Shown: in pieces, positions 5,141 to 35,863 of the stretch
Numbering within the stretch: position 1 is the first letter of the stretch
How the letters are laid out: every line of letters begins with the position of its first letter
Assembly: GCA_033697325.1 (NCBI GenBank)
Contig: GCA_033697325.1_4854.1
Source of the DNA: a phage
Direction: 5' to 3' (one strand)
Length of the DNA: 46,335 nt
Translations under genes and position numbers: made by a program
The notes under the pieces: model-generated
The model's input: the letters and a program-made list of their open reading frames with translations, nothing else
What the model was told of the DNA's origin: nothing
Database searches by the model: none

Positions 5141-5157
5141 TTTTGTGTCCTCTCGAT

Positions 5158-5637
5158 TTATTTGATGATCAGTTTTGGTTTGCCGTCGGTGATGGCACAA
5201 CCCTTAATTTCAATCCCGGCCTTTATCGCATTTTTAATTGCTGCGTTATCTGCCGACACTTTCACAACTCGGTACTGCTCAGGAAGCTGCTCAACAGGAA
5301 CAAACACATCAAGAACTGGTGACGGTTTGCCAAGAGTGATACTGAACAATTTACCTTTGATATTTGTCTTTCCTGACGCCATCATGTTTTGACGAAGATA
5401 ATCTTTAAGGTTATCTATCTTCGCAACTAAAACACGCTTACGCTCAGAAAGACGGTCAATCTCGGATTTAAGTCCAGCTTCATCAGCTTCAAGCTCACGA
5501 ATGTAAGCAGCAACCATTTCAGCCTTTCCTTCAAACTCCTCTTCAATAAGATTGATGGTATCTTCAATCTGCTCCCGTGGAATATCCTCCATCGCCAGCA
5601 GTTCATTAAGCTGTTTGGTTATCTCGTATAGATGCAT
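5158..5637 (-). CDS. Gp157-like phage protein (Sak4-associated)
   Basis: Coiled-coil N-terminus and overall resemblance to the siphovirus Gp157 family. Position between Sak4 and the SSB-like gene. Start uncertain (ATG 5637 or GTG 5652). Confidence 0.5.
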   Translation of the reverse strand: MHLYEITKQLNELLAMEDIPREQIEDTINLIEEEFEGKAEMVAAYIRELEADEAGLKSEIDRLSERKRVLVAKIDNLKDYLRQNMMASGKTNIKGKLFSITLGKPSPVLDVFVPVEQLPEQYRVVKVSADNAAIKNAIKAGIEIKGCAITDGKPKLIIK

Positions 5638-16589: not shown

Positions 16590-16683
16590 TATAATCATAA
16601 ATGCAGCTAGTCCGGCCAGACGAAAAGGTGAACGTAGACACCCTGCTGCATCCTCAATCTACGAACCTACTACGGGGTTACTC

Positions 16684-33762: not shown

Positions 33763-34160
33763 TGCCAGCGAAATTAAGAGGCATCCGGCAGGCAGTAGAA
33801 AGAACATCGCAGATTGTGGATGAGATAATCGCCACAAAAGCTGTACGTGCAATCAAGTCAGCGACATACATCATCCGCACCGAATCAGCAACGCTAACGC
33901 CAATTGATACATCGACGCTGATTAACAGTCAGTTTGATACCGTGGAAGTTAGCGGAACGCGAATCACTGGCAAAGTTGGCTACTCTGCAAAATATGCGCT
34001 GTACGTTCACAATGCCAGTGGCAAACTTGCAGGTAAGCCGCGCAGCAACGGCAATGGCACATACTGGTCACCGGGCGCTGAACCGCAATTTTTAACCAAA
34101 GGGGCGCAGCGCACGAAAGACCTTGTTGATAGCGTGATTAAGGAGGAGATGAAACTGTGA
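33762..34160 (+). CDS. Putative tail component (HK97 gp10-like)
   Basis: Size and position; stop/start overlap. Confidence 0.4.
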   Translation: MPAKLRGIRQAVERTSQIVDEIIATKAVRAIKSATYIIRTESATLTPIDTSTLINSQFDTVEVSGTRITGKVGYSAKYALYVHNASGKLAGKPRSNGNGTYWSPGAEPQFLTKGAQRTKDLVDSVIKEEMKL

Positions 34161-34531
34161 ATATGCTTGAACTGGTTGACGCATATCTTCAGGATGCCGG
34201 ATTATACGATGGCTGGACTTCGCAGTTGCAGTTCTGGAATGATACCGGAGATGGCAGCGAGCAATTTATTGTCCTGCAATCCAATGGTGGTACGCAGGTG
34301 ATGGATGGCCTCGGCGGTGACTTCTATTTCTCATTATATATTGTCGGCAAACATGGACAGTATAACGTTTCGGATGTTGACGCTAAAGCCAATGAGATTA
34401 TCGAATACATCAAAACCCATCCGATTGATTCATGCGTTAACTACATCCAGTTGCAGGCACCACTCGGAAGACCAATGCTGACGGAAGAGAAGCGACCTGT
34501 GCATGAGTTGCTTTTGCGGGTTGTGAAATAA
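34157..34531 (+). CDS. Putative tail completion / terminator protein
   Basis: Size and position upstream of the major tail gene; GTGA overlap with SD aggagg. Confidence 0.4.
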   Translation: MNMLELVDAYLQDAGLYDGWTSQLQFWNDTGDGSEQFIVLQSNGGTQVMDGLGGDFYFSLYIVGKHGQYNVSDVDAKANEIIEYIKTHPIDSCVNYIQLQAPLGRPMLTEEKRPVHELLLRVVK

Positions 34532-34534
34532 ATA

Positions 34535-34556
34535 AAGCCGCATAAAGCGGCTTTTA
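34535..34556. terminator. Bidirectional intrinsic terminator
   Basis: agccgc-ataaa-gcggct hairpin then tttt; also sits right after the tRNA 3' end on the minus strand. Confidence 0.6.
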
Positions 34557-34559
34557 ATT

Positions 34560-34636
34560 TGGTGGACACGGACGGATTTGAACCTTCAATCAGCCGATTA
34601 TGAGTCGGTTGCTTTAACCAATTAAGCTACGCGTCC
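34560..34636 (-). tRNA. tRNA with CAU anticodon (elongator Met or lysidine-modified Ile2; not initiator-like)
   Basis: 77-nt cloverleaf folded by hand: 7-bp acceptor stem including one GU, D-arm with GG, anticodon loop CUCAUAA, T-loop GGTTCAAATCC, discriminator A, encoded CCA. G1-C72 pair argues against initiator. Confidence 0.75.
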
Positions 34637-34660
34637 ATAAGTGCTGGTTTAAGCATTGCC

Positions 34661-34726
34661 AGCGTGCTTTCTTAATATCCAGCCCCGTAACCCATACATA
34701 CCCCTATATATGATTGCGATAATGCT
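34661..34726. repeat. 13-bp perfect inverted repeat (cttaatatccagc / gctggatattaag) with 40-nt loop
   Basis: Lies in the non-coding stretch between the tRNA and the leftward promoter at 35067-35095. Confidence 0.5.
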
Positions 34727-35066
34727 GGATATTAAGTGTTGTGGCGTTTCGCGATTAACTGAAACTGGCATAACAATGGATGCAAACCTATCCAAATAAT
34801 CAAGATGGCATTACCACAACGGAAAGAGCACTGGCTAACCAAGCGCGCCGACTCTTCACGATTATCGACTCAATGCTCTTACCTGTTGTGTGCCCATTAT
34901 TAATCACACCGGGCCAGTGCGCCGAATTTGTTTACAAGGAATCGGAAGACCTTGCTGACTTACAGGCTATTACGCCGCCATCAGAACAACATCATCGTTT
35001 GCATTTATCTTTGTGGTCAGTTTCTAAAAAGTCCGCAAAGTCGCTCACGAAAACTATCTGAAATAC

Positions 35067-35095
35067 AATCTACACCACAAAATAATCACTGTCAA
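35067..35095 (-). promoter_or_regulatory. Leftward promoter pointing at the non-coding region and tRNA
   Basis: Minus strand TTGACA, 17-nt spacer, TAGATT. Confidence 0.5.
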
Positions 35096-35110
35096 CACCT
35101 GTGATATAAT
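35090..35110 (+). promoter_or_regulatory. Rightward extended -10 promoter for tail genes
   Basis: TGaTATAAT at 35102-35110. Confidence 0.5.
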
Positions 35111-35146
35111 CACCACGTTAGCAGCTAACACAATTCGGAGATCGAA

Positions 35147-35863
35147 ATGGCTATTTGTGCAAATGATAAGGGCGTTCTGGTCGGTCGCATGACACGACTG
35201 TTCCTTGCTGAGGGGTGCGGCGACGCAGTTCCGGAGGCAGGAGACTGGAAGTATTTAGGCTCAACCACCAGTAAAGGCGTTGACTACTCGCCGCAGACCA
35301 CCACGTCGGAGGCAGATACCGCTGGCGGTTTTGTTTCCACTCTCGTTACCAGCTCTGATATGACCATCAGCGCAGAGGTGGAAATCCGCAAGAATGACCC
35401 AAGCGATGAATTTGGCTTCCACCGTCTGGTTGAGATTTACGCCACTGAACTGAAAGCGCGTCGTCAGCCTTCTTTGTGGGTACGCGAGGTAACTGGCGCA
35501 ACTATCGTTACTGCGTACTGCAACATTACCAGCATCAGCTACGAAGGTGGCACTAACGACATCGTGACTGGCAGCCTTGAGTTCAAGGTTTACGATTCTG
35601 ACAGCGTTACCGTCGAAAGCCTTGAACCTCTGGCGTTCACCACCGACCTGCCATCAACTGGCAGCACTGGCAGTCCGTTAACGGTTGCTGTTGAAGGTGG
35701 CGTCGCACCATACACCTACGTCTGGCGCAAAGATGGTGTGGTTGTTGGTGGTGAGTCTGGCTCATCACTGGCAAGCCCTACAGCTGGCGTATACACCGTC
35801 ACGGTAACAGATTCATCTACTGACCCGGAAGTTATTATCAGCACGGCGTGCACCGTATCCTGA
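35147..35863 (+). CDS. Major tail protein with C-terminal Ig-like domain
   Basis: 238 aa; C-terminal PYTYVWRKDGVVVGG...AGVYTVTVTDSS is Ig-like; SD ggaga; position before chaperone and tape measure genes. Confidence 0.6.
   Translation: MAICANDKGVLVGRMTRLFLAEGCGDAVPEAGDWKYLGSTTSKGVDYSPQTTTSEADTAGGFVSTLVTSSDMTISAEVEIRKNDPSDEFGFHRLVEIYATELKARRQPSLWVREVTGATIVTAYCNITSISYEGGTNDIVTGSLEFKVYDSDSVTVESLEPLAFTTDLPSTGSTGSPLTVAVEGGVAPYTYVWRKDGVVVGGESGSSLASPTAGVYTVTVTDSSTDPEVIISTACTVS

What the first reader, a model, noticed from the sequence alone, without database searches (positions are those of the whole stretch)
34560..35095. tRNA(CAU) behind a 430-nt non-coding leader with a 13-bp perfect inverted repeat
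The leftward promoter at 35067-35095 has no minus-strand ORF of 60 aa or more before the tRNA. The stretch contains a 13-bp perfect inverted repeat with a 40-nt loop at 34661-34726. The transcript may be a structured tRNA precursor, a small RNA, or a cis element such as a packaging or replication signal.
Basis: seen in the sequence. Interest (0 to 1): 0.5.

Follow-up and report, generated by a model that had tools for sequence, protein, structure and literature searches.

The report
Phage RNA that targets host tmRNA
The supposed 430-base "leader" of a phage tRNA is really a row of separate small-RNA genes; the first looks like the message half of the bacterial ribosome-rescue RNA (tmRNA) joined to a stretch that can base-pair with the host's own tmRNA, which suggests that many phages of enteric bacteria tamper with ribosome rescue.

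Summary
The tRNA(CAU), the leftward sigma-70-like promoter and the 13-bp perfect inverted repeat are real. The repeat lies at 34671-34736, 10 nt from the stated position. The stretch is non-coding, but it is not a tRNA leader. Sister phages lose or swap the tRNA and keep the rest.

It is a leftward operon of modular structured RNAs separated by long hairpins.

The first module (35057-34892, minus strand) also occurs, unannotated, in hundreds of unrelated enterobacterial phages and prophages: P1, HK620, Felix-O1-like, Ackermannviridae and N4-like. It always has the same orientation as tRNAs or the operon transcript.

It carries a start-codon-less 10-codon frame (ANDDVVLMAA*) like the SsrA tag ANDENYALAA. 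Upstream is the AUAA motif. The stop codon lies in a hairpin, and two pseudoknots supported by covariation follow.

It has no tRNA-like domain. Instead, its 5' 46 nt are antisense (38 bp, -43 kcal/mol, z = -4.7) to host tmRNA nt 54-107, covering PK1, the resume codon and tag codons 1-6.

Best model, inferred only: it docks on host tmRNA, masks the host tag template and offers its own. I found no prior description.

The parts
35067..35095 (-). Leftward sigma-70-type promoter TTGACA(35095-35090)-17 nt-TAGATT(35072-35067). The predicted start is about 35060-35058, 2-3 nt before the antisense seed.
   Evidence: Conserved 98-100% in all sister phages. The same promoter architecture sits in front of homologous copies in YX3973 and Felix-O1-like phages. 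Transcription itself was not shown.
35012..35057 (-). Anti-tmRNA domain: AUAGUUUUCGUGAGCGACUUUGCGGACUUUUUAGAAACUGACCACA. It is complementary to E. coli tmRNA nt 54-107 (3' half of PK1, A-rich spacer, resume codon, tag codons 1-6). 38 bp fall in helices of 10, 6, 13, 2 and 6 bp.
   Evidence: -43.3 kcal/mol; shuffles -29.3+-3.0; z -4.7; other segments z +0.3 to +1.6.
35003..35011 (-). Single-stranded spacer AAGAUAAAU. The AUAA tetramer lies at -6..-3, with U at -5 and A at -4 as in E. coli U85/A86.
   Evidence: AUAAAUGCAAACGA is invariant in alignments A1-A3. Role of A86 and of AUAG/AUAA: PMC2481249 and PMC4236655.
34970..35002 (-). Tag-like reading frame GCA AAC GAU GAU GUU GUU CUG AUG GCG GCG UAA = ANDDVVLMAA*. 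There is no start codon. A second stop, UAG, follows.
   Evidence: all 152 copies have exactly 10 codons; 100 of 101 lack an in-frame start; 14 peptide variants, synonymous changes; ARAGORN recognises the resume consensus and tag.
34955..34984 (-). h5-like hairpin CUGAU...GUCAG that holds the stop codons.
   Evidence: helix 4: 91% of cells paired; pair 119/142 is AU in 20 sequences and GC in 14.
34922..34954 (-). Pseudoknot A: hairpin CAAGG/CCUUG whose loop CCGA pairs with the downstream UCGG.
   Evidence: helices 5 and 6. Compensatory pairs include UA 18/CG 14, AU 13/GC 12/CG 8, and CG 25/GC 8, AU 13/GC 13.
34892..34921 (-). Pseudoknot B: hairpin CGCAC/GUGUG whose loop GCCC pairs with the downstream GGGC.
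   Evidence: helices 7 and 8 (CG 18/GC 4/UA 4; CG 22/UA 4). The second stem varies in length in the Felix-like, Taipeivirus and P1 types.
34815..34890 (-). Long inter-module hairpin A: CACAACAGGUAAGAGCAUUG - 37-nt loop - CAGUGCUCUUUCCGUUGUG. Proposed RNase III-type processing or 3'-end structure.
   Evidence: I4; -33.4 kcal/mol, z -3.1. The stem is kept with different sequence in P1, Erwinia and PD205, while the loops are unrelated. A 97% identical copy lies next to tR' of lambda. Cleavage is inferred.
34738..34820 (-). Module 2: a structured segment closed by GUUGUGG/CCACAAC. Function unknown. Other phages carry a different, cloverleaf-like module here.
   Evidence: z -2.2; L013 and HK620 type.
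34671..34736 (-). Like hairpin A it is preceded by CACAACA.
   Evidence: The segment 34644-34745 is 96-99% identical in sister phages with or without a tRNA.
34643..34663 (-). Small hairpin GCUGG-11 nt-CCAGC just 5' of the tRNA.
   Evidence: MFE structure. No comparative support.
34560..34636 (-). tRNA with anticodon CAU. It is an elongator type (G1-C72). Whether it is tRNA-Met or tRNA-Ile2 is undecided.
   Evidence: An AAU-anticodon variant occurs in sister phages. The only E. coli genomic matches are annotated tRNA-Ile. AUA makes up 13 per 1000 codons in the window.
34534..34554 (.). Bidirectional intrinsic terminator AAAGCCGC-loop-GCGGCUUU with U-rich tracts on both strands. It ends the leftward RNA operon and the rightward tail-completion gene.

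Best explanation
The region 35095-34534 (minus strand) is a small stable-RNA operon.

The first RNA is a chimera. Its 5' 46 nt are an antisense arm against host tmRNA (SsrA) nt 54-107. Directly after the arm it carries what a tmRNA needs to resume translation: a 9-12-nt spacer with AUAA, a GCA-AAC resume and +2 codon, a 10-codon degron-like tag, a stop codon in a hairpin, and two pseudoknots. It has no tRNA-like domain.

Proposed mechanism (inferred):
- The RNA anneals to host tmRNA through its 5' seed. This opens PK1 and covers the host resume codon and the first six tag codons.
- The intermolecular helix takes the place of PK1.
- The host's alanyl-tRNA-like domain plus SmpB would then deliver the phage tag template to stalled ribosomes.
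- Rescued proteins would end in A-ANDDVVLMAA instead of A-ANDENYALAA. In effect this would be a hybrid multi-piece tmRNA.

The long flanking hairpins probably release the modules from the precursor (RNase III type). The tRNA is matured by the ordinary tRNA enzymes.

Shown here: the sequence features, family-wide conservation, covariation and complementarity. Inferred: transcription, annealing in vivo, translation of the tag and processing.
For: Modularity and strand:
- The module 34895-35066 is present or absent as a block among sister phages.
- It recurs at 72-86% identity in HK620 (between pR'/qut and tQ), inside the Sf14 tRNA array, in Taipeivirus, in Ithacavirus, in Gamaleyavirus, and in the P1 ban-operon leader before trnA/trnT. 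It is always co-oriented with the tRNAs or the operon transcript.

Tag frame:
- All 152 copies from an IMG/VR scan, whose pattern fixed nothing beyond codon 7, have exactly 10 codons and then a stop.
- 100 of 101 copies have no in-frame start codon.
- There are 14 peptide variants of the form AN[DE][DEN]x x [LM]x[AV]A. Eight distinct DNA sequences encode the same ANDDVVLMAA.
- The overlapping AUG frame is neither conserved in length nor in sequence (read directly).
- ARAGORN recognises the resume consensus and tag. All homologs give sub-threshold tmRNA-family hits in Rfam.

Structure:
- 87.4% of cells are paired, against 47% or less in slid controls.
- 99 cells have changes on both sides, against 38+-6 in shuffles (0 of 500 reach it). 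The compensatory changes lie in the h5-like hairpin and in both stems of two pseudoknots.

Antisense arm:
- Duplex -43.3 kcal/mol with tmRNA nt 54-107. 300 + 100 dinucleotide shuffles give -29 to -30 +-3, with the best at -39.4.
- 26 of 32 diverse representatives hit the same site. The short Felix-like, Rosenbergiella and Pantoea types hit its core, nt 79/80-107/108.
- Watson-Crick-only alignment scores are 17-36, against a background of 14.7+-2.2.
- Paired positions are 84% conserved; linker positions are 22-69% conserved.
- No other segment of the transcript is complementary to tmRNA.
- The arm does not match the RNA's own tag region (cis duplex -26.6, at chance level).

Resume signals:
- AUAA at -6..-3 and GCA-AAC are invariant.
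- A86 and AUAG/AUAA set the reading frame in tmRNA, and PK1 can be reduced to a hairpin or to single strand without loss of tagging (PMC2481249; PMC4236655).

The target segment is nearly identical in the E. coli, Rosenbergiella and Pantoea tmRNAs.
Against: - No expression, end-mapping, interaction or proteomic data were available. Everything beyond sequence is inference.
- Annealing requires melting host PK1, and tmRNA is largely bound by SmpB and S1.
- A roughly 40-bp intermolecular duplex could simply be cut by RNase III, which would mean destruction rather than a swap.
- The phage tags resemble the host tag (same length, AAND start, AA/VA end), so the benefit of a swap is unclear.
- Short-arm variants do not stand out by duplex energy (z -0.9 to -2.1, and +0.2 for Pantoea alvi).
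- The host target is invariant, so no phage-host compensatory change could be scored.
- Delivery of a template tethered only by base-pairing in the PK1 position has no precedent. Natural two-piece tmRNAs are held by the acceptor and P2 helices.
Confidence: 0.5

Rival explanations
1. Anti-tmRNA silencer or decoy only. The 5' arm anneals to host tmRNA and blocks or destroys its message (for example through RNase III). The tag-like frame and pseudoknots are not translated. They serve stability or bind S1/SmpB, or are an inherited remnant of the tmRNA piece from which the RNA arose.
For: The complementarity evidence is the same as for the main model. A 38-bp duplex is a plausible RNase III substrate. 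Mycobacteriophage DS6A carries a TLD-only tmRNA-like RNA, and a similar molecule inhibits tmRNA (PMC4131195; PMC11915505), so inhibition of trans-translation by phages has a precedent.
Against: It does not explain several features. The frame keeps exactly 10 codons plus a stop in every copy. The peptide pattern is kept while the DNA varies. AUAA-NN-GCA-AAC stays invariant. The RNA's own tag region has diverged just enough to escape its own antisense arm.
Confidence: 0.27
2. Autonomous two-piece tmRNA. An acceptor (tRNA-like) piece exists in the same operon or elsewhere, for example one of the cloverleaf-like 'module 2' RNAs. It pairs with this coding piece independently of host tmRNA.
For: Module 2 of the HK620/L013 type folds as a four-way cloverleaf whose 3' arm abuts the closing stem. 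The element always sits among tRNA genes. Permuted two-piece tmRNAs exist in nature (PMC11915505).
Against: No TLD was found by ARAGORN or Rfam in the window or in 190 related loci. The one 'permuted tmRNA' call borrows halves of unrelated tRNAs. Module 2 has no G3.U70 and no T-loop, is not conserved between phages, and occurs without the tmRNA-like module and vice versa. This rival also leaves the antisense arm unexplained.
Confidence: 0.07
3. One reading: one long structured 5' leader or precursor whose only product is the tRNA. The inverted repeat would be a processing or regulatory hairpin.
For: Promoter, structured stretch, tRNA and terminator are collinear on one strand.
Against: The tRNA is dispensable and exchangeable, while the 'leader' modules persist. 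The main module occurs in unrelated phages next to other tRNAs or next to none. The module has its own conserved frame, pseudoknots and antisense arm.
Confidence: 0.05
4. DNA-level element: a recombination or homing hotspot, or a packaging or replication signal, conserved as DNA rather than as RNA.
For: The locus is a mosaic cassette site with sharp module boundaries at repeated about 20-nt sequences. An HNH endonuclease gene sits here in ZBSTP8.
Against: Strand-specific G.U pairs, compensatory changes, a conserved reading frame and constant co-orientation with transcripts point to RNA function. Shuffling at the repeats explains the spread of the modules, not their content.
Confidence: 0.04
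5. Protein-coding gene on the plus strand (ORF 34780-35061, 93 aa, annotated as a hypothetical protein in some relatives).
For: The ORF exists. Bas77, Bas81 and ZBSTP8 annotate overlapping ORFs that share the C-terminal 55 aa.
Against: There is no PHROG hit. The frame is shifted in Bas80. 82 of 101 distinct copies have stops in all three frames of that strand. Start and end differ in every annotation.
Confidence: 0.02

Closest known systems
tmRNA (SsrA), especially the coding piece of two-piece (permuted) tmRNAs
   Same: A start-less tag frame opens with GCA-AAC and encodes AND...AA. With the charged Ala it would give an 11-residue tag like AANDENYALAA. The AUAA tetramer lies two nucleotides before the resume codon. 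The stop codon sits in a hairpin. Pseudoknots follow the frame. Rfam tmRNA models give consistent weak hits.
   Different: There is no tRNA-like domain anywhere in the phage. There is no PK1 in cis and no P2 helix to a TLD. All Rfam scores fall below the gathering thresholds (27 bits against 47). In place of PK1 it has an arm antisense to the host's tmRNA. It is carried by phages, prophages and P1 plasmids inside tRNA or late-operon transcripts.
TLD-only tmRNA-like RNA of mycobacteriophage DS6A (and full tmRNAs of Bxz1-like phages and Bacillus phage G)
   Same: A phage-borne derivative of tmRNA that keeps only one half of the molecule and is thought to interfere with host trans-translation (PMC4131195, PMC11915505).
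   Different: It is the mirror image. DS6A keeps the tRNA-like half and has no tag. This RNA keeps the message half and adds an antisense arm. The host clade also differs (Enterobacterales).
Trans-acting base-pairing RNAs of phages and prophages (DicF; anti-sRNAs such as AgvB/AsxR of EHEC prophages)
   Same: It is encoded in prophage operon leaders and released from longer transcripts. It has a 5'-proximal seed and extended complementarity to a host RNA. In P1 a 'dicF-like region' lies directly upstream.
   Different: The target would be tmRNA, not an mRNA or sRNA. The duplex is far longer (38 bp). The RNA brings a translatable template of its own.
Phage tRNA operons with extra stable RNAs (for example the T4 tRNA cluster with RNAs C and D; recalled from memory, not tested here)
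   Same: Small structured RNAs of unknown role are co-transcribed with phage tRNAs and cut out of a precursor.
   Different: No sequence relationship was tested. Here the extra RNA has a recognisable ancestry and a predicted target.

Membership tests
tmRNA (Rfam RF00023 / RF04321 / RF01849-51) | tRNA-like domain: 7-bp acceptor stem with G3.U70, T-arm, 3' ACCA | tested here: not met
   ARAGORN finds no tmRNA in the window or at the element in any of about 190 loci. Its one 'permuted' call uses halves of unrelated tRNAs. A Rfam E-value scan of the whole window finds only the one tRNA.
tmRNA | Score at or above the Rfam gathering threshold | tested here: not met
   tmRNA_permuted 27.3 bits (GA 47) and beta_tmRNA 18.1 (GA 84) in the window. 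Homologs score 25-33, 16-23 and 11-12 bits.
tmRNA | Short tag frame without a start codon that opens at an Ala resume codon and ends in a hydrophobic Ala-rich C-terminus | tested here: met
   GCA...; ANDDVVLMAA*. 152 of 152 copies have 10 codons. 100 of 101 lack an in-frame start. Variants are listed.
tmRNA | Conserved upstream frame-setting signal (AUAG/AUAA tetramer; U85, A86) | tested here: met
   AUAAAU-GCA is invariant in A1-A3. The criterion comes from PMC2481249 and PMC4236655.
tmRNA | Pseudoknot PK1 in cis just upstream of the resume codon | tested here: not met
   The candidate cis helices show no compensatory change, and one is only 71% paired (helices 1 and 3). The cis duplex is no better than chance. 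The segment is instead antisense to host tmRNA.
tmRNA | Stop codon in helix 5, followed by pseudoknots | tested here: met
   Helices 4-8 have compensatory changes; 87% of cells are paired against 47% or less in slid controls. There are two pseudoknots rather than three.
tmRNA | Alanylation, SmpB binding, tagging of stalled nascent chains | not testable with these tools
   Needs biochemistry or proteomics.
trans-encoded antisense RNA | Extended, conserved complementarity to a defined site in a target RNA, beyond chance | tested here: met
   38 bp with tmRNA nt 54-107; z -4.7; the same site across variant classes; linker positions are variable; other segments serve as negative controls.
trans-encoded antisense RNA | Physical interaction with, and effect on, the target in vivo | not testable with these tools
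   No RNA-RNA interactome or expression data were available.
tRNA | Cloverleaf with canonical D, anticodon and T arms | tested here: met
   ARAGORN. Rfam RF00005 63.4 bits against GA 29, full model 1-71.
tRNA-Ile2 (CAU, lysidine) versus elongator tRNA-Met | Isotype-specific identity elements | tested here: inconclusive
   G1-C72 excludes an initiator. Sister phages carry the same tRNA with AAU. The only E. coli matches are annotated tRNA-Ile. AUA is frequent in the phage. No isotype model was available.
RNase III processing stem | About 20-bp imperfect dsRNA stem flanking a stable RNA; cleavage in vivo | not testable with these tools
   The stems exist, and their pairing is kept with different sequences in P1, Erwinia and PD205. 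The title of Daniels et al. 1988, cited in PMC7547250, says that lambda late RNA has RNase III sites. Their positions could not be read.

The most novel reading that the evidence does not exclude
A widespread phage RNA turns the host's tmRNA into a hybrid, multi-piece tmRNA. It base-pairs across PK1, the resume codon and the first six tag codons of SsrA, silences the host tag, and uses the host's alanyl-TLD/SmpB to deliver a phage-encoded tag template. Ribosome rescue would continue during infection, but rescued proteins would receive a phage-specified C-terminal tag.
Probability: 0.45. Interest if true: 0.95.

Novelty: categorically new. Interest (0 to 1): 0.88.

Why it matters
Trans-translation is the universal bacterial ribosome-rescue system. 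Several phages (lambda-immP22 hybrids, Mu) have long been known to depend on it, without a clear molecular link (recalled from memory). A phage RNA that pairs with tmRNA and carries its own tag template would be the first natural trans-acting regulator or re-programmer of tmRNA.

It would also be the first tmRNA derivative that keeps only the message half. That gives a directly testable handle on how viruses manage stalled ribosomes and proteolysis tagging.

The element is present but unannotated in model phages (P1, HK620) and in Felix-O1-like, Ackermannviridae and N4-like phages. It matches sequences in 656 of 5,426 complete E. coli genomes; most of those matches are the partial, about 78-86-nt P1-plasmid-type hits, and 137 genomes carry a match covering at least 80% of the element. 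The experiments are therefore easy to set up.

In practical terms, ORFs annotated across it are probably spurious. It also shows that phage 'tRNA regions' hide other functional RNAs.

Tried and rejected
- Cis PK1 model. I first read the invariant 5' segment as a small hairpin plus pseudoknot PK1. This was dropped: it has no covariation and its cis duplex is at chance level, while its complementarity to host tmRNA explains the invariance.
- Search for a tRNA-like domain. I ran ARAGORN on all loci and Rfam E-value scans, and inspected the hairpin loops, module 2 and a T-arm-like hairpin in a Pantoea prophage by eye. Nothing conserved turned up. The ARAGORN tmRNA calls in swi2-type loci (tag AKAVRLRK...) and in L114 are artefacts built on real tRNAs.
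- Full-length duplex of the 249-nt RNA with tmRNA. It was uninformative: -124 against -128+-7.
- Longest-complementary-stretch metric with G.U allowed. The background saturates it, so I replaced it with Watson-Crick local alignment.
- All-against-all column covariation. It was too noisy because there are few clades.
- RNAalifold on A2 found only one hairpin, because the rest is pseudoknotted.
- Phage-host compensatory changes. The tmRNAs of Rosenbergiella and Pantoea were fetched through SmpB, but their target segment is nearly identical to that of E. coli. The Salmonella contig ended before ssrA.
- Plus-strand ORF 93 aa and the 47- and 48-aa ORFs have no family and no conserved frame. The C-terminal 30 aa of the ZBSTP8 HNH protein merely read through the conserved hairpin segment and lie outside the HNH homology.
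- Literature. There were no hits for the tag peptides, for a natural anti-tmRNA, or for an MLD-only tmRNA. The P1 genome paper and Daniels et al. 1988 are not held.
- No covariance model was built. Pattern scans, BLAST and Rfam sufficed.
Full report
**What the window is.** The 46-kb window is a siphophage of the ViII-E1/IME207/C1/Bas77-81 group. Its closest relative at this locus is Escherichia phage EcoIv28_Lewi, 94.8% identical. The finding lies between two rightward structural genes: a tail-completion-type gene (34157-34531) and the major tail protein gene (35147-35863).

**Check of the observation.**
- ARAGORN finds one tRNA in the window, anticodon CAU, at 34560-34636 on the minus strand. 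Rfam scores it at 63.4 bits.
- The 13-bp perfect inverted repeat with a 40-nt loop is real, but it lies at 34671-34683/34724-34736, 10 nt from the stated position.
- It is the only perfect repeat of that length with arms within 100 nt in the whole window.
- It folds far better than shuffles: -33.3 kcal/mol, z -3.8.
- The leftward promoter-like site TTGACA-17-TAGATT (35095-35067) is a 10 of 12 match. The scan by itself is not above chance. The site is, however, invariant in sister phages, and the same arrangement precedes homologous RNAs in other phage families.
- An intrinsic terminator at 34554-34534 closes the unit.
- The longest minus-strand ORF is 48 aa.

**It is not a tRNA leader.** Comparison with ten annotated relatives and 34 IMG/VR relatives shows a mosaic.
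- Phages C1, Bas77 and ZBSTP8 lack the tRNA, with exactly 34555-34643 missing. They keep the hairpin segment 34644-34745 and the block 34890-35200.
- Other relatives carry the same tRNA with anticodon AAU, or tRNA-Arg(UCU)+tRNA-Ser(GCU), or tRNA-Arg+tRNA-Met, or an HNH endonuclease gene (phrog_99, E 4e-62).
- About half of the relatives replace 34895-35066 with an unrelated 92-nt segment, with boundaries at 34894|34895 and 35066|35067.
- The stretch is therefore a row of exchangeable modules behind one promoter.

**The plus-strand ORF does not refute the non-coding reading.** The 93-aa ORF (34780-35061) has no PHROG family and is frameshifted in Bas80. In 82 of 101 distinct homologous copies, all three frames of that strand are closed.

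**A module shared by unrelated phages.** A sensitive BLAST of 34644-35146 hit 884 phage records. The part 34871-35110 recurs at 72-86% identity in unannotated DNA of very different phages.

| Phage or replicon | Where the module sits |
|---|---|
| HK620 | Between pR'/qut and the late terminator tQ, on the strand of the late transcript |
| Sf14 (Felix-O1 relatives) | Inside the tRNA array, on the tRNA strand |
| Taipeivirus and other Ackermannviridae, Ithacavirus, Gamaleyavirus, Klebsiella phage YX3973 | Unannotated DNA |
| Lambdoid prophages of E. coli | Between the Q antiterminator and the holin gene |
| P1-type plasmids | Downstream of dmt, in the leader of the C1-controlled ban operon, 370 nt before tRNA-Asn/tRNA-Thr; a 'dicF-like region' is annotated just upstream, but nothing on the element itself |

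- 656 of 5,426 complete E. coli genomes have a match, all unannotated. 150 places are chromosomal and 554 are on P1-type plasmids. The P1-plasmid matches sampled cover about 31-46% of the element; 137 genomes have a match covering at least 80% of it.
- Among 185,579 species genomes, an exact pattern scan found ten true copies. Nine are in Enterobacterales; the tenth is a P1-identical contig in a MAG labelled Bacillota, probably contamination.
- The orientation is always that of the neighbouring tRNAs or operon transcript. The RNA strand is therefore the window's minus strand.

**The module looks like the message half of tmRNA.** On that strand every copy contains AUAAAU-GCA-AAC-GA..., followed by a frame of exactly ten codons and a stop.

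| Tag | Where found |
|---|---|
| ANDDVVLMAA | This window, N4-like phages, Taipeivirus |
| ANEEMYLAVA | HK620, YX3973 |
| ANDNVFLAVA | Felix-like phages |
| ANDDLMMVAA | P1 |
| ANDDYKLAAA, ANDDQFLAVA, ANDDLMLQAA and others | Prophages |

- The E. coli SsrA tag is ANDENYALAA.
- The first collection scan fixed nothing beyond codon 7, yet all 152 copies stopped after codon 10.
- 100 of 101 copies have no in-frame start codon.
- Eight different DNA sequences encode the same ANDDVVLMAA.
- The overlapping AUG frame varies in length and sequence between types.
- ARAGORN recognises the 'resume consensus' and tag in one Felix-like locus.
- Rfam gives weak, sub-threshold tmRNA-family hits at this spot in every homolog.
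- The stop codon lies in a hairpin, and two H-type pseudoknots follow.
- On a 34-sequence alignment, 87.4% of cells are paired against 47% or less in slid controls. There are 99 double-change cells against 38+-6 in shuffles (0 of 500 reach it). Compensatory pairs occur in the hairpin and in both stems of both pseudoknots.

**No tRNA-like domain.** Neither ARAGORN nor Rfam finds one in the window or at any homologous locus. The single 'permuted tmRNA' call borrows halves of unrelated tRNAs 300-550 nt away. This is therefore not a member of the tmRNA family as defined. The tmRNA literature lists phage tmRNAs only in mycobacteriophages and Bacillus phage G, plus a TLD-only form in DS6A (PMC4131195; PMC11915505).

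**The 5' arm is antisense to host tmRNA.** The invariant 5' segment showed no covariation as a cis pseudoknot (helices 1 and 3).
- Folded against E. coli ssrA (fetched), the 46 nt at 35057-35012 pair with tmRNA nt 54-107.
- The helices are UAGUUUUCGU/ACGAAAACUA (tag codons 3-6), GCGACU/AGUCGC (which includes the resume codon), UUGCGG+CUUUUUA/UAAAAAGCCGCAA (3' strands of PK1) and CUGACC/GGUUGG. Together they make 38 bp at -43.3 kcal/mol.
- 300 dinucleotide shuffles of the arm give -29.3+-3.0 (best -39.4; z -4.7). 100 shuffles of tmRNA give -30.3+-3.0.
- 26 of 32 diverse representatives choose the same site. The shorter Felix-like, Rosenbergiella and Pantoea arms choose its core, nt 79/80-107/108, although without significant energy.
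- A plain Watson-Crick alignment to the reverse complement of ssrA scores 17-36 for the 59 distinct arms. Random 54-nt windows of the phage score 14.7+-2.2.
- Paired positions are 84% conserved, while the linker positions are the most variable at 22-69%.
- Every other segment of the transcript is at chance against tmRNA, z +0.3 to +1.6.
- The arm does not fit the RNA's own tag region (-26.6, at chance level). That region differs from the host exactly where the arm pairs: host GACGAAAACUAC against phage GAUGAUGUUGUU, and host GUCGC against phage AAAUGC.
- The target segment is almost identical in the E. coli, Rosenbergiella and Pantoea tmRNAs.

**How it probably works.**
- The arm starts 2-3 nt from the predicted transcription start.
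- Where the arm ends, next to host helix 2, the phage RNA continues with a 9-12-nt spacer containing AUAA, two more nucleotides, and then GCA-AAC.
- In tmRNA, A86 and the AUAG/AUAA tetramer set the reading frame (PMC2481249; PMC4236655).
- PK1 can be reduced to a hairpin or to single strand without loss of tagging, and the template after the +2 codon is freely replaceable (PMC4236655).
- The simplest model that uses all the conserved parts is this: the RNA docks on host tmRNA, hides the host template and presents its own. The host TLD-SmpB would then deliver a phage-specified tag.
- I put this at about 0.5.
- The main rival, at about 0.27, is that it only silences or destroys tmRNA and the tag-like part is not translated. 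That rival leaves the strict conservation of the frame and resume signals unexplained.
- Why a phage would want this is open. Possibilities are altered proteolysis of rescued proteins, keeping rescue going when the host message is damaged, or evasion of a tmRNA-dependent host response.

**The rest of the operon.**
- After the tmRNA-like module comes a roughly 20-bp hairpin with a 37-nt loop (34890-34815; z -3.1).
- Its stem is kept with different sequences in P1, an Erwinia prophage and PD205, while the loops are unrelated.
- Lambda has only this hairpin, 97% identical, directly after tR'.
- Next comes a second structured module (34820-34738), which is replaced by a cloverleaf-like module in HK620 and other relatives.
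A small hairpin, the tRNA and the terminator follow.
- I infer that the long hairpins are RNase III-type processing or end-protecting signals. This was not tested.

**The tRNA.**
- It is an elongator type (G1-C72).
- Three points favour tRNA-Ile2 over tRNA-Met, but they do not settle it. Sister phages carry an AAU-anticodon variant. The only E. coli genomic matches are annotated tRNA-Ile. AUA is used at about 13 per 1000 codons (crude ORF set).

**Novelty and caveats.**
- Searches of the held literature found no natural anti-tmRNA RNA, no message-only tmRNA derivative and none of the tag peptides. Non-open-access papers could not be checked.
- All functional statements are inferences from sequence. 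No expression, interaction or proteomic data were available.

Noticed in passing
window 35102-35110 (+): An extended -10 promoter, TGaTATAAT, lies back-to-back with the leftward TTGACA (35095-35090), 37 nt upstream of the major tail protein gene. It has no good -35 element and was not reported by the consensus scan.
   Followed up: no
L005, L019, L025, L027, L030 (for example L005:1661-1737): Sister phages carry the same tRNA with anticodon AAU instead of CAU. This single-base change would switch decoding from AUG/AUA to AUU-type Ile codons.
   Followed up: partly
L010:1665-2267 (-) (Salmonella phage ZBSTP8): An HNH homing-endonuclease gene (phrog_99, E 4e-62) occupies the slot of the tRNA cassette. 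Its last approximately 30 codons read through the conserved hairpin-B segment.
   Followed up: partly
L013:2138-2252 (-), L045:1318-1428 (-): A different 'module 2' (GUGGUGAAUGCGCAGGCUGAUGCGC...GCCGGAGAUCAGCNCCGGCCACCAC) is shared by HK620 and many sister phages. It folds as a four-way, tRNA-like cloverleaf (z -2.75 in L013) and is not recognised as a tRNA.
   Followed up: partly
L013:2329-2421 (-): Sister phages without the tmRNA-like module have an unrelated 92-nt segment behind the same promoter. It shows no complementarity to tmRNA (z -0.3). Its nature is unknown.
   Followed up: partly
L171:1501-1576 (lambda DE3): Lambda carries only the long hairpin (97% identical to window 34815-34890), immediately 3' of the 6S RNA terminator tR'. 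It overlaps the end of the annotated orf-64 and may be one of the RNase III sites reported for lambda late RNA.
   Followed up: partly
L189:653-754 (P1, NC_005856 68791-68892): P1 has an annotated 'dicF-like region' ending in a terminator hairpin directly 5' of its copy of the tmRNA-like RNA. All of this lies in the ban-operon leader.
   Followed up: no
L046:392-606 (-) (Klebsiella Taipeivirus): A Rfam STnc100 sRNA match lies above the gathering score (54 bits against 47) about 1 kb from the tmRNA-like element. There is a weak second hit in L049.
   Followed up: no
window 16600-16664 (+): A Rfam int-alpA RNA match lies just under threshold (32.5 bits against 35.8, E 0.006).
   Followed up: no
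L186:~5150-5240 (Pantoea alvi prophage): The hairpin after the tmRNA-like element contains a perfect T-arm-like hairpin (CGGGUUCGAUUCCCG) in its loop. It may be a tRNA remnant. ARAGORN does not call it.
   Followed up: partly
window 35113-35130 (+): The 5' UTR of the major tail gene contains the palindrome GTTAGCAGCTAAC. Nine of its bases (UUAGCAGCU) equal the end of the E. coli SsrA tag frame. This is probably coincidence.
   Followed up: no
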